A stretch of 63,985 nt of DNA, counting the filler, from Licmophora abbreviata (taxonomy: Eukaryota): NCBI GenBank assembly GCA_900291995.1. It is 11 parts of 11 records of this genome, joined end to end, with 100 filler letters (N's around TTAATTAATTAA, not from the genome) between each part and the next. Parts side by side here need not be neighbours in the genome. Positions count along the whole stretch, not along the records: positions 16,299 to 19,654 come from OLMU01002993.1; 10 more parts are not named here. One strand, given 5' to 3'. The position numbers were made by a program, and so were the translations under genes. The number at the start of each line of letters is the position of its first letter. Within the stretch, counting starts at the first letter, position 1. Shown here piece after piece: positions 16,299 to 21,289 of this stretch. A model generated the notes under the pieces. It had not been told where the DNA came from. It saw nothing but the letters and a program-made list of their open reading frames with translations, and did not search any database.

Positions 16299-16394
16299 AA
16301 ATCTGTGTCCAATTTGGTTGATTTTTCATTATCCCACCCCAGCACCTCATCATCCGTATAACCTGGCCTCTTTCCTGCGTAAGATCGCAGCAGC

Positions 16395-17459
16395 ATGAAT
16401 ATGCTCTCTTTGAACAGGTCGGTCGCAGCTTGTGCTCGTCGCGTCGCTGGTCCTTGGAGGCGACAACACCGCGAGCTAGTTGTTGCTGCGTTTTCGACCA
16501 ACGCACGTCGATCCAACGAGTCGACTGTTACGACTGCTAGTAGTACTAGAACTCGCGGCCGACGCGTCAGTGGAACCAATCTACCACGAAGCCACACTGA
16601 TATCTGGAATCAGATGTATAAGCAGTTTAAAGAATTTGTCGACGAACATGGGCATACGAGAATTGCCTCCAACTACGAACCAAACCCGAAGCTCTCCCGA
16701 TGGGTCGAACGCCAGCGCTTCTTACACGCTCTCAAAGTGGAGGGTGACTCTACCACTCCGCTGACACAGGAGCGTGAGGATAAGCTGAACGAACTTGGTA
16801 TGGTCTGGCATGTTTACGGTCATACGTGGGATACACAATATGCTGAACTTATCAAATTCATTCAGCAGCACGGCCACACAAGAGTCACCGCACAACATAG
16901 CGAAAAATTGAAGTACTGGGTTGAAGCCCAGCGCCAGCAGTACCGATACTTGCAACAAGGTGAACCATCTCGCATGACGCACGACAGAATAAAGCTACTG
17001 GAGGAAATAGACTTTCAATGGGATGTCCACGAGGAACAGTGGATAGAGGCCTACGAGGAACTGTGTCAATTCAAACGAGTACACGGACACTGCTTGGTCT
17101 TGAGGACTTTCCCAACTGAATCGCTCGGCCGCTGGGTCGAAACACAACGTCGACAGTACCGGCTTCTTCAGCAACAGAAATCTAGCTCTATGAAGCCGCA
17201 ACGCATTGACCTGCTAAACAAAATTGGCTTCGTCTGGAGTCCCTTTGAGGCGGCGTGGATGGAGAAGTTCCACGAACTGGAGGAGTTCGTTGAAGTTAAT
17301 GGGATCGGCAATACTCCGCCCGAAAGGAAGAATCCGGTTTTGCGGCGATGGCTCCGACTTCAGCACAAATACTATCGGATGAAACAGGAAGGCGAGAAAG
17401 TATCGCTAACGGATGATCGCATCGCCAGACTAAAACGCCTTGGCTTCTTACTTGGCTAA
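16395..17459 (+). CDS. Helicase-associated (HA) domain repeat protein (4 repeats) with mitochondrial-type presequence
   Basis: Four W-x-(Y/F)...HGH...L-x-x-WV-x-x-QR...RI-x-x-L-x-x-(L/I)GF-x-W units (fourth more divergent); Arg/Ala/Ser-rich N-terminus. Confidence 0.88.
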   Translation: MNMLSLNRSVAACARRVAGPWRRQHRELVVAAFSTNARRSNESTVTTASSTRTRGRRVSGTNLPRSHTDIWNQMYKQFKEFVDEHGHTRIASNYEPNPKLSRWVERQRFLHALKVEGDSTTPLTQEREDKLNELGMVWHVYGHTWDTQYAELIKFIQQHGHTRVTAQHSEKLKYWVEAQRQQYRYLQQGEPSRMTHDRIKLLEEIDFQWDVHEEQWIEAYEELCQFKRVHGHCLVLRTFPTESLGRWVETQRRQYRLLQQQKSSSMKPQRIDLLNKIGFVWSPFEAAWMEKFHELEEFVEVNGIGNTPPERKNPVLRRWLRLQHKYYRMKQEGEKVSLTDDRIARLKRLGFLLG

Positions 17460-17529: not shown

Positions 17530-19508
17530 CTAGAACATGTCGCCAAAGTATTCTTCTAGATCGTCCAGGCGTAGGCCGAGTCCGGAAAAGTCGCTCTTAA
17601 CTTCGTTCCATTGATTCCCGCGGCTTTCCATCTTGTCGGCAAGCTTGGCTCTTCTCTCGATTTCCTCGGCGGTCCAAGTCGATTCCTCCACGCTACTATA
17701 GCAGCCATGCAAGCCGTGGGGAATCCCAATCCCCAGTGCTACTCTACACACTGGGCCAGACTCAATATCGTCCGCATCGAGCACCACAATCTCGCTCTCT
17801 TGTGTCTTGCCATTGAAAAGGACCGTCAAAATGTATCCAGTATCATCTGCCGATGGGTGTCCCTTGCGAGGAGCGTACATGGGCTCGCCGCAGAATTCGT
17901 ACTCGTTTGGCATCCAGATTTCGGTCGTCCCGGTATCAACGTCGAACTTTGCTATACCCTGTGGAGGAGAGACCTCGCTACCTTGGCTACCGACGGCACT
18001 GTAGATGAAGCGATGTCTCTGTGTACTCATAGCTGGGTTGACAACTCCAAAGCTGCACTGTTGATCGCTCAACACCTTCTTTGTGACACTTCCAGCCCCA
18101 ACATTAACCGTGTATCGCACCAGAGACTTTTTCGAAGTGCAGCGTGTAAAGTCCTCCATTGAAGACATCCAAGGATACGACGACGGGGTACCACTTTGTG
18201 CGTTCTTCCCATCGGAACGAATTGCATCTACGATAACTTTGCCGTCCTCTTCGTAGGCGTTGCAGAACTGCAAATTGACATCCAGTGTTCCGTCGAACGG
18301 TATCGAAAACGACTTTCCAGACTTTCCGCTGCCGACGCGGGGAACAAGATGCAGAACCTGTATTAGAGGAGTGGGCAAAATGGTCAGCATCGTTGCAAAA
18401 AAAAAAGAAGAAGATGTCAGTCAACACAAGCACGACGAGTACCTACCGAAGCAGAGTTTTCCACCACAAGAGTCTTTCCGGGCTCCTTTGAGAACATGTA
18501 TTGCATGCTAATGGCTGTTACAGGGGGTTGCACGAAGACGGCATAGTTTTCCGTCGCAGCAAAGTCAGAAATCATTGCGAACCCGGGAAGTTCCTTCGAG
18601 ACCATGCCGCCTTCTTCTGGTACAAGTCGGAACTTGGGATTGAATTCAAACAACGTCAACTCGGATGACTTTGGTTCCGGCTTGTTAGCGTAGAACAACA
18701 TGCGATCTTTCTTCGGGTCGTAGACTGCTTTGGCACCGAACGGACTTTGCTCCTTTACGATCCCACCTAGCTGCGATCTTCCCTCGGTGGACAATGCTAA
18801 AGCATCTAGCTTGTACGGCAGCCCACCTTCCCATAGAGACAAGAGACGCTTCCCCCAATACACCGCTCTCGTATTCGAGGTGTTCTTTCGACTTTTGTTC
18901 AGCCCAGGCTGCATATGGTGTCGAAAGAGAGGAAGAGGCATGTCGTTCGCCAGTCCACAGCCAGCTTGGGGACCAAGTGCTCGCGTCGAGTCCATCGCTT
19001 CGTACAGTCGCATGCCTTTCCGTCGCTCGTTGGTGAATGCATTCGTCCTAACATAACGAAACCTAGATACTGCTGTGCCCGCTCCTGTGAAAGTCACAGC
19101 CAGGACACCCCCGTCGCCTTCAAAAGGATGCTTGACCATTCGCTCAGGGTCCTGACCGTCTGGAACGGGCGGACCCTTGGGCTGTACAATGGAAGTTTTC
19201 GGAGGAATGATGGATCCAGCGCTGAACATCGCCGGGCCAGACCGAAAGTAGGTCCCAACCAAATCCTCTGGCAGCGATCCTTCCGATGGAGTGCATTCTT
19301 TACATGGTTGCTCGTCAAATACTGTTTTGAATCCATTGGAATACGCTAGCATGTCAGGTGGTCTTTTGACAGAGGCTGGTCCGGATGGCGAGGCCTCCAA
19401 AGACTGTGCCCGAAGCTTCAGGTTTCGTCCATAACTCGATCTCGTCGGTGCAAATCCGTCAGTTCCAACAAAACTGAAGAGCACAAGCATCGATACGCGT
19501 CCCGTCAT
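17530..19508 (-). CDS. Carotenoid oxygenase (RPE65/ACO family) homolog, plastid-targeted, iron ligands degenerate; 2 exons
   Basis: GSLPEDLVGTYFRSGP, HPFEGDG, RFRYVRT, KNTSNT, LWEGGLPY, CGEPMYAP, PHGLHG; GTDG-FAP presequence; intron 18358-18446. Confidence 0.9.
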
Positions 19509-19654: not shown

Positions 19655-19754
19655 NNNNNNNNNNNNNNNNNNNNNNNNNNNNNNNNNNNNNNNNNNNNTT
19701 AATTAATTAANNNNNNNNNNNNNNNNNNNNNNNNNNNNNNNNNNNNNNNNNNNN
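19655..19754. other. Artificial assembly spacer
   Basis: N-run with TTAATTAATTAA. Confidence 0.98.
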
Positions 19755-19825: not shown

Positions 19826-20929
19826 TTAGTTCCAAGCTAGCGCCGAGCGTTCGGTCCAGTACTCTTCGCTGCTCGCCACGCAGCTGCTCATGATCTCGGA
19901 CAGCAACTCTGGACTTTGCTTCAATCGGTCCGACACCTGCATAGCCTTGAAGTTCGATTCGAGTTGATCCTCGGTTACAGCCCCCGACAAGACTCTCGGA
20001 TCAAAAGGCTGGGCCAAAATGCATCCAAGAGCTAATTGATCAGGTTGGCAGTCAAGTTGCTTTGCAAACTTTTGAACTGATTCGTTTCGCAGAGTACGCC
20101 CATTCGCAAGTCCTTCCTTGATGACAACATCCATGCCAGCGTCGTGTGCTTCCTGCAAAGCTTCTTTGGGTCGCTGCTCTAGTACGTTGAAGGTACACTG
20201 TACCGAATCAAACAGTGGCTTTCCTTCGTCGTCCAATATCGTCCTAGCTTCTCGCAGCACGTCATTCTGCTGCGGCCCCGACACGGACAAGCCGAGCGAC
20301 CAGCCACGATCCTTTCGACATTGACTCAGAGCTTTGTGTACTCGAGTATCCGAAAGTATTCCAGATTGAAAGGTTGCAGAGTGAACTTGATACAGATTAA
20401 CGTATTCGCCCATCAAATCGGCAGTCTCCTTGAGCTGCGTGAGAAAGTTCTGTGGTTGAAGGGATGATACGGTGGTAAGGGGCTATCAAGCTAGCTCGAT
20501 CTCTCTCCCAAGAAGACAGTACGTCTCTAATAGCAGACTTACCTCAACGGAGTGATCTTTGACTTCATGCGGCTCACCATCTCCCAACTGCACATTCCAA
20601 TCGGCAACGTACGTGTATCCCCATTTGGAACTGACAAACACGTCCTCGGGCGCAATCTGGTGCGATCTCAGATACTCGCCGACAAACTTTTCACTCAGTC
20701 CATAGGATCGTGCGCAGTCAAGCCATGGAGCCATCGACGTTTCTTTTGAGACTTGCAGGAGTCGATCCATGACGACGTTGGCGCGATCTTGCATCGCGTC
20801 GACGCTACGGCCATTGCCGAGTATGGCGCTCCGATCGAGGTTGATGTAGCCGGGGCGACCCAGAGCAGCCATGCCCAAGCCGAGGCGCGGCAATGCAGCG
20901 GAAGGAGGTCGAGCGCTGGTGACAACCAT
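19826..20929 (-). CDS. Aldo/keto reductase; 2 exons
   Basis: LGLGMAALGRPGYINL, DCARSYGLSE, VSSKWGYTY, LYQVHS, VIKEGLANG, VLSGAVT; intron about 20450-20542. Confidence 0.88.
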
Positions 20930-21289
20930 GCTTTCCAAAGTATTCAATGCGCCGGCTTTTTGGCTTGATCTCGACAGTCAACGGCATGTTGAATGTGTTC
21001 AACGAGAAAAGGTTTCGATGGCCGATGGCTCGATTTATCGAGATTTCAGATTGTGTTTCGCGCTCTTTTTGGTTGAAGTGCACCATGACTGACGTCAGAC
21101 CTCGTGAAAATAGCTCGAAGGGCAACCGCGGCCAGACGGCGTCGCTGACTTTTTCGCAGTGATGCGGCGATGTGATTGCAGTGATGACAATGGCGACGGA
21201 GACGGCCATTTAATTTCTAATTTTACTGCTTGGACAGCGCTACCGTACCATAGTTCTGCTTCTTATTGTCAAGTGAGCAAGGGGCAGAT

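What the first reader, a model, noticed from the sequence alone, without database searches (positions are those of the whole stretch)
17530..19508. Plastid carotenoid-oxygenase homolog that has lost three of four iron-ligand histidines
Established: CCD/RPE65/ACO enzymes bind Fe(II) with four invariant His (FxAHP, IHDFA, FHxxNA, LHG) backed by three Glu. Seen: FGAKAVYDP (Lys, codon 18729-18731), MISDFAATENY (Ser, 18567-18569), LQFCNAYEE (Gln, 18268-18270); only GLHG remains, and the CEFP glutamate reads CSFG. The frame, intron and surrounding motifs are intact, so this looks like targeted loss of the metal site, not decay. Inference: a non-cleaving carotenoid-binding/transport protein or a neofunctionalised enzyme in diatom pigment metabolism.
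Basis: partly seen in the sequence, partly recalled or inferred. Interest (0 to 1): 0.78.

Follow-up and report, generated by a model that had tools for sequence, protein, structure and literature searches.

The report
Iron-less carotenoid-oxygenase relative conserved across diatoms
Diatoms keep a chloroplast-targeted relative of the iron enzymes that cut carotenoid pigments; it has lost its iron-binding site yet is strongly conserved, so it probably does a non-cutting job, most likely docking onto partners through a tail inherited from red algae.

Summary
Confirmed. The intact 629-aa gene (one 89-nt intron) encodes a PF03055 protein. Against Synechocystis ACO it reads H183→K, H238→S, H304→Q and E370→S; H484, E150 and E426 remain.

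The loss is clade-wide. Of 178 full-length homologues, 72 have no ligand His, 99 one, 7 two, and none three or four. The surviving His is F/Y/N in 87 of 178. dN/dS is 0.06-0.19, and Triparma shares the loss.

- A C-terminal tail, the best-conserved region, shared with four-His proteins of red algae and ochrophytes.
- Iron loss seen only among tail bearers: 11 of 19, against 0 of 92 without a tail. The search favours this pattern.
- A rebuilt substrate entrance: tunnel Phe113→D/E in 177 of 178, plus a near-invariant His-His loop.

Best reading (0.5): a plastid pseudoenzyme that docks on partners through its tail. Rivals are a pigment carrier (0.2) and a metal-free xanthophyll enzyme (0.18). No structure model was obtained. 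Ten paper searches found no description of the clade.

The parts
18447..19508 (-). Exon 1, aa 1-354
   Evidence: PF03055 E=1.6e-45; ACO E=4e-33
18358..18446 (-). 89-nt GT..AG phase-0 intron
   Evidence: same position in 5 of 59 related loci
17530..18357 (-). Exon 2, aa 355-629 plus stop
   Evidence: PF03055 E=9.6e-45; ACO E=1.4e-23
19359..19508 (-). Bipartite plastid-targeting presequence: signal peptide about aa 1-18, Phe at +1, transit peptide to about aa 50
   Evidence: sequence; motif test on homologues, 93 of 128 vs 8.9 shuffled; cleavage site inferred
19146..19220 (-). Clade-specific proline-rich insertion, aa 97-121
   Evidence: several positions >=96% conserved in 178 homologues and gapped in 4-His relatives
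18867..18995 (-). Rebuilt tunnel-entrance segment, aa 172-214: D173 (=ACO F113), R176, D189, H197-H198 (18915-18920), N204, R207, R214
   Evidence: location at the entrance inferred from alignment to ACO
18828..18830 (-). E227 = ACO E150, kept (154 of 178)
18729..18731 (-). K260 = ACO H183, lost (His in 0 of 178; Lys in 146)
18567..18569 (-). S314 = ACO H238, lost (His in 6 of 178)
18268..18270 (-). Q384 = ACO H304, lost (His in 16 of 178)
18052..18054 (-). S456 = ACO E370, lost (Glu in 0 of 178; mostly Y/F/S)
17884..17886 (-). E512 = ACO E426, kept (177 of 178) although its His partner varies
17707..17709 (-). H571 = ACO H484, kept here; His in 91 of 178, F 57, Y 29, N 1
17533..17664 (-). C-terminal tail beyond the propeller, aa 586-629, core W-N-x-V-x-S-x-F-S-x-L-G
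   Evidence: most conserved region, 0.88 vs 0.58-0.76; shared with red-algal and ochrophyte proteins; no informative hit

Best explanation
[quoted passage not shown] SHOWN by sequence: it cannot build the canonical 4-His iron site; the loss is shared by diatoms and Triparma; it is under purifying selection; it carries a tail that predates the loss. INFERRED: the red-algal ancestor had both catalysis and a tail-mediated binding job. After duplication some copies kept iron without the tail (here L001, L002) and this copy kept the tail without iron. Lys260, Arg214, Glu227, Glu512 and aromatic residues probably fill the empty metal cavity and keep the propeller folded. The tail and the rebuilt His/basic loop form the binding surface. 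SPECULATIVE: the partner is membrane-associated carotenoid-handling machinery (an active CCO paralogue or a xanthophyll enzyme) that it positions or regulates.
For: No clade member has more than two ligand His (0 of 178). Fe(II) is needed for ACO activity (passages PMC6060882; PMC5133782). dN/dS is 0.06-0.19. The tail is the most conserved region. It occurs on 4-His proteins of Cyanidiococcus, Galdieria, Porphyridium, Pinguiococcus and Rhizochromulina, and on iron-less proteins of Rhodosorus, Chattonella, Chrysoparadoxa, Polarella and Triparma. Loss of two or more His is seen in 11 of 19 tail bearers and 0 of 92 others. Non-diatom iron-less forms also lose F69/T136/W149/F371 equivalents while keeping the tail. 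The own genome has 4-His paralogues L001-L004 without the tail and one tail match only.
Against: No partner is identified and no structure was obtained, so the tail may simply pack on its own propeller. The tail-loss association is biased: the search profile contained the tail, so divergent dead proteins without a tail could fall below the top 150; 4 of the 11 are diatom-clade kin; related sequences are not independent; the tail model was seeded with many of these same proteins. Diatoms conserve many new polar residues (D/E173, R176, H197, H198, R214) more tightly than a plain scaffold needs. F69, W149 and F371 are kept in 155, 160 and 168 of 178, so a ligand pocket may survive. Four-His tail bearers and tail-less proteins are interleaved and deep branches are weak, so the order of duplication and loss is not shown.
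Confidence: 0.5

Rival explanations
1. Non-cleaving carotenoid or apocarotenoid carrier: the empty tunnel holds a xanthophyll and passes it between enzymes or to antenna proteins.
For: F69, W149 and F371 equivalents kept in 155, 160 and 168 of 178. Aromatics replace H484 and E370, which makes the centre more hydrophobic. Metal-free ACO stays folded (passage, PMC6060882).
Against: Tunnel Phe113 is D/E in 177 of 178 against Phe in 67 of 103 four-His relatives; F236 and F303 are shortened; the amphipathic segment is replaced. Non-diatom iron-less forms lose more tunnel residues.
Confidence: 0.2
2. Metal-free neo-enzyme: D/E173, H197/H198, R176 and R214 form an acid-base site that isomerises, hydrates or dehydrates a xanthophyll, for example the unassigned neoxanthin to diadinoxanthin step.
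For: These residues are 98-100% conserved in 178 homologues and nearly absent from 4-His relatives. That step was listed as unidentified in 2025, and other pathway enzymes are repurposed homologues such as CRTISO5 and VDL (passages, PMC11880063). Single copy in the own genome.
Against: The His-His motif was seen only in diatoms and Triparma. Haptophytes also make diadinoxanthin and no haptophyte hit was named, though few hits carry names. An iron-less tail form occurs in the red alga Rhodosorus, which makes no diadinoxanthin (recalled). No pigment gene was recognised among the neighbours. One orthologue lacks the His pair (P0388; possibly a gene-model error).
Confidence: 0.18
3. Relocated metal site: other invariant histidines (H127, H197, H198, H568) bind a metal elsewhere and support redox or hydrolytic chemistry.
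For: H127 178, H197 175, H198 175 and H568 177 of 178.
Against: H127 is the ordinary HPF-motif His also present in ACO. H568 is His in 32 of 103 four-His relatives. By alignment the His pair sits in the entrance loop, far in sequence from the axial site. Spatial clustering could not be tested.
Confidence: 0.08
4. Decaying pseudogene or relaxed copy.
For: The former ligand positions vary freely among homologues.
Against: Intact frame; dN/dS 0.06-0.19; against 32 loci the window copy has saturated synonymous sites but pN of only 0.22-0.30; orthologues carry transcript labels (mmetsp entries).
Confidence: 0.02

Closest known systems
Synechocystis apocarotenoid-15,15'-oxygenase ACO (PDB 2BIW)
   Same: Best PDB match for both exons (E=4e-33, 1.4e-23); HPF.GDG, WEGG, GEP and LHG motifs; E150, E426, F69, W149 and F371 kept.
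   Different: H183, H238, H304 and E370 lost; F113→D; two clade-specific insertions; C-terminal tail of about 45 aa; plastid presequence.
Four-His tail-bearing CCOs of red algae and ochrophytes (Cyanidiococcus KAF6003322.1, Galdieria GJQ15716.1, Porphyridium KAA8491528.1, Pinguiococcus, Rhizochromulina)
   Same: Share the C-terminal tail core and the ACO-like body. A Cyanidioschyzon 'NCED' knockout lacks ABA (passage, PMC5002421); whether that gene is this orthologue was not tested.
   Different: They keep all four His, acidic second-shell residues and the amphipathic entrance segment, and lack the diatom insertions. I found none described as characterised.
RPE65 (non-cleaving CCO-family isomerohydrolase)
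   Same: Precedent for a CCO fold that no longer cleaves carotenoids (passage, PMC5643517).
   Different: RPE65 keeps the His/Glu iron site (PMC13734108); this clade does not.
His-less CCD-like genes of Phycomyces blakesleeanus
   Same: CCD paralogues lacking the expected histidines have been noted (passage, PMC5133782).
   Different: Two genes in one fungus, not described there as a conserved clade; no relationship tested here.
Pseudoenzyme regulators (trypanosome prozymes, Arabidopsis BAM9)
   Same: Dead paralogues kept for binding and regulation (abstract starts in search listing).
   Different: Their partners are known; here none is shown.

Membership tests
Carotenoid cleavage oxygenases (PF03055) | RPE65/PF03055 sequence profile | tested here: met
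   Both exons score 156.6 and 153.9 bits against a cut-off of 27
Carotenoid cleavage oxygenases (PF03055) | Seven-bladed beta-propeller with dome | tested here: inconclusive
   No model obtained; alignment to ACO covers aa 122-340 and 384-575; language-model features of homologue P0016 match PF03055 clusters at 0.96
Carotenoid cleavage oxygenases (PF03055) | Four iron-ligand His | tested here: not met
   1 of 4 here; at most 2 in 178 homologues
Carotenoid cleavage oxygenases (PF03055) | Three second-shell Glu | tested here: not met
   E150 and E426 kept; E370 is Glu in 0 of 178
Carotenoid cleavage oxygenases (PF03055) | Hydrophobic substrate tunnel (ACO residues listed in PMC13734108) | tested here: inconclusive
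   Of 7 residues mapped: 3 kept (F69, W149, F371), 2 shortened (F236, F303), F113→D/E, L400→P
Carotenoid cleavage oxygenases (PF03055) | Hydrophobic membrane-dipping patch beside the tunnel | tested here: inconclusive
   The amphipathic segment of 4-His relatives is replaced by a longer His/basic loop; that this segment is ACO's patch is recalled
Carotenoid cleavage oxygenases (PF03055) | Fe(II)/O2-dependent alkene cleavage | not testable with these tools
   Needs an enzyme assay; predicted absent
Pseudoenzymes (dead paralogue kept by selection) | Catalytic residues lost across a clade | tested here: met
Pseudoenzymes (dead paralogue kept by selection) | Purifying selection and intact gene | tested here: met
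   dN/dS 0.06-0.19 in 16 pairs among 33 sequences; intact frame
Pseudoenzymes (dead paralogue kept by selection) | No catalytic activity of any kind; binding partner | not testable with these tools
   Needs assays and pull-downs

The most novel reading that the evidence does not exclude
Diatoms and Parmales rebuilt an iron dioxygenase into a metal-free acid-base enzyme (Asp/Glu173 with His197-His198) that carries out the still unassigned dehydration of neoxanthin to diadinoxanthin, the entry to the fucoxanthin and diadinoxanthin-cycle pathways.
Probability: 0.08. Interest if true: 0.9.

Novelty: new variant of a known kind. Interest (0 to 1): 0.6.

Why it matters
The four iron histidines are treated as a family constant (passage, PMC5133782). 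Here a widespread, conserved plastid-targeted protein of diatoms has dropped them, and databases still label many members 'all-trans-8'-apo-beta-carotenal 15,15'-oxygenase'. Diatom carotenoid oxygenases were called functionally uncharacterised in 2025 (PMC12654249), so this copy can be struck from the list of likely cleavage enzymes. It points to an undescribed tail-based function in red-lineage plastids that a single knockout could test. There is a small chance it fills a gap in fucoxanthin biosynthesis.

Tried and rejected
- No structure model was obtained, so fold, tunnel geometry, His clustering and tail placement are untested.
- No RNA run was listed for this stretch; this is no evidence either way.
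- Tail searches gave nothing informative: PDB, 3 weak hits at E>=0.43; ESM Atlas, no usable hit; NCBIfam, 0 families; prokaryote genomes, 599 pattern matches and none confirmed.
- A profile search with non-diatom tail bearers returned only 28 proteins and added little.
- The Phaeodactylum orthologue was not identified. The PhaeoNet table was cut when stored and had no hit for three clade motifs. The supplements of PMC5462543 could not be read. Unseen supplements may hold expression or localisation data.
- Gene neighbourhood: 71 ORFs from 20 loci showed ordinary local synteny and no recognised pigment gene. Rejected as a functional clue.
- Number of origins is unresolved. All 16 iron-less rows form one side of a branch at only 27/67 support, with 1-3 origins in bootstraps. 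A clade of ochrophyte iron-less plus four-His tail bearers was rejected at p-AU 0.011, but I named that group after seeing the tree and long branches are present.
- The Fisher p of 1.6e-10 for tail against loss is not used, because the rows are related and the search is biased.
- Decay was rejected.
- Earlier-finding look-ups showed nothing.

Full report
OBSERVATION. The minus-strand gene 19508..17530 with a GT..AG intron at 18446..18358 gives 629 aa without internal stops. Both exons match PF03055, and their best solved relative is Synechocystis ACO. The intron is supported by five of 59 related loci with a phase-0 intron at the same codon boundary, and by many loci that run through it in one frame. 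The gene sits on a 3356-base contig with one neighbour, an HA-domain gene.

THE LOSS IS CLADE-WIDE. A search with exon 1 found 248 proteins of up to 650 aa, of which 120 were listed, and 93 longer ones. I dropped 35 of the 120 as partial, leaving 85+93=178 full-length rows; these are 90%-identity clusters, not species. Named rows are diatoms (Attheya, Cylindrotheca, Cyclotella, Thalassiosira, Seminavis, Eucampia, Mayamaea and others). At the four ligand positions 72 have no His, 99 have one, 7 have two, and none has three or four. Per site, His occurs in 0, 6, 16 and 91 of 178; E370 is never Glu; E150 is kept in 154 and E426 in 177. The last His of this copy is therefore a free position, replaced by F, Y or N in 87 rows. 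Triparma proteins show the same loss with partly different residues, so the loss probably predates the diatom-Parmales split. Among 33 coding sequences, 16 pairs were unsaturated and gave dN/dS 0.06-0.19; the window copy is saturated at synonymous sites against all 32 others, with pN 0.22-0.30. Of 128 N-complete homologues, 93 show a hydrophobic region followed by [AGS]F, against a mean of 8.9 in shuffles, which fits diatom plastid targeting (motif rule recalled). The own genome holds six PF03055 genes; this clade is single copy and L001-L004 keep four His (the genome may be incomplete).

WHAT WAS GAINED. (1) A tail of about 45 aa beyond the propeller is the best-conserved region (0.88 against 0.58-0.76). 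(2) A proline-rich insertion lies at aa 97-121. (3) The segment at aa 172-214 is rebuilt. ACO F113, a tunnel-lining residue (passage, PMC13734108), is D or E in 177 of 178, against Phe in 67 of 103 four-His relatives. The amphipathic stretch of those relatives is replaced by a loop with near-invariant R176, D189, H197, H198, N204 and R207, and N137 becomes R214 in 178 of 178. F236 and F303 are shortened and L400 becomes Pro, while F69, W149 and F371 stay. That this segment is ACO's membrane patch is recalled, not tested.

THE WIDER FAMILY. A profile search of 50%-identity representatives (best 150 of 6246) reached tail-bearing proteins outside diatoms. I dropped 39 of the 150 as incomplete at the four columns. 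Of the other 111, 19 bear the tail (one, P0155, weakly): 8 keep four His and 11 have lost two or more. Of 92 without the tail, 91 keep four and one keeps three. Named four-His tail bearers are Cyanidiococcus, Galdieria, Porphyridium, Pinguiococcus and Rhizochromulina, plus a Mallomonas fragment with the two His it covers. Named iron-less ones are Rhodosorus, Chattonella, Chrysoparadoxa (first site gapped), Polarella and Triparma. Outside diatoms the iron-less forms also lose tunnel residues but keep the tail. The association is not clean: the profile contained the tail, kin share states, and four of the 11 belong to the diatom clade. The tree supports the diatom clade with P0128 at 100/100, but the iron-less forms as a whole at only 27/67. 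The alternative grouping of ochrophyte live and dead tail bearers was rejected at p-AU 0.011, post hoc. This leans weakly towards an old dead lineage. No prokaryote tail was found.

MECHANISM. Iron is required for ACO cleavage (PMC6060882) and the His/Glu requirement rests on mutagenesis (PMC5133782), so canonical cleavage is very unlikely (about 0.95; inference). What all iron-less forms share is the propeller scaffold and the tail, not the tunnel. I therefore favour a docking or adaptor pseudoenzyme (0.5): an ancestral protein with both jobs, later split into iron-bearing tail-less paralogues and a tail-bearing iron-less one. The partner is unknown; an active paralogue or another membrane-associated carotenoid enzyme is a guess. 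Rivals are a pigment carrier (0.2), a metal-free acid-base enzyme using D/E173 and the His pair (0.18, of which the neoxanthin to diadinoxanthin step is 0.08), a relocated metal site (0.08) and decay (0.02). No structure model was obtained, which leaves these open. The neighbourhood gave no clue.

LITERATURE. Ten full-text searches (listings and abstract starts) showed no paper on this clade. The library lacks most subscription journals, so prior mention cannot be excluded. Passages only were read in PMC12654249 (diatom carotenoid oxygenases uncharacterised), PMC11880063 (neoxanthin to diadinoxanthin enzyme unidentified), PMC13080032 (acetyltransferase found; pathway still incomplete), PMC13734108, PMC6060882, PMC5133782 (His-less CCD-like genes noted in Phycomyces), PMC5643517, PMC6912245 and PMC5002421. 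PMC12168105 had no hit. The PMC7596299 supplement was searched in cut form; those of PMC5462543 were unavailable.

VERDICT. This is a CCO-derived protein by sequence but fails the defining iron-site test. It is a new variant of a known kind, a CCO pseudoenzyme clade of red-lineage plastids. Interest 0.6.

Noticed in passing
window 2219-62936 (e.g. 19655-19754): Ten pairs of 44-N runs flanking a 12-base spacer (AT-only in the one read) join separate contigs; the window is not one continuous piece.
   Followed up: partly
window 19826-20977 (-); L035:380-1435; L014:6067-7446: The aldo/keto reductase upstream across the N gap is 62% identical to the one upstream of the orthologue in L035, and L014 also has one there, so the adjacency is probably real. 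A link to apocarotenal reduction is only a guess.
   Followed up: partly
window 16383-17459 (+); L016, L018, L035, L051: An HA-domain (PF03457) gene lies tail-to-tail with the gene here and in four scanned loci.
   Followed up: partly
L050, L053, L054, L064: An ATP synthase gamma gene lies downstream of the orthologue in these four loci, with PheRS or FTCD genes nearby.
   Followed up: no
P0118, P0121, P0355-P0357, P0373, P0388: A subgroup with Thalassiosira/Cyclotella names has H or Y at the H238 position while E150 is replaced by S, A or G.
   Followed up: no
P0388; P0316: The Cyclostephanos protein lacks the His-His loop and the Seminavis protein diverges mid-tail; both may be gene-model errors.
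   Followed up: no
L005:1474-3045: A fifth own-genome PF03055 paralogue runs off its contig end and aligned poorly; its ligand state was not settled.
   Followed up: no
L015:2848-4620: A fatty-acid-desaturase-family gene is adjacent to the orthologue in one locus only.
   Followed up: no
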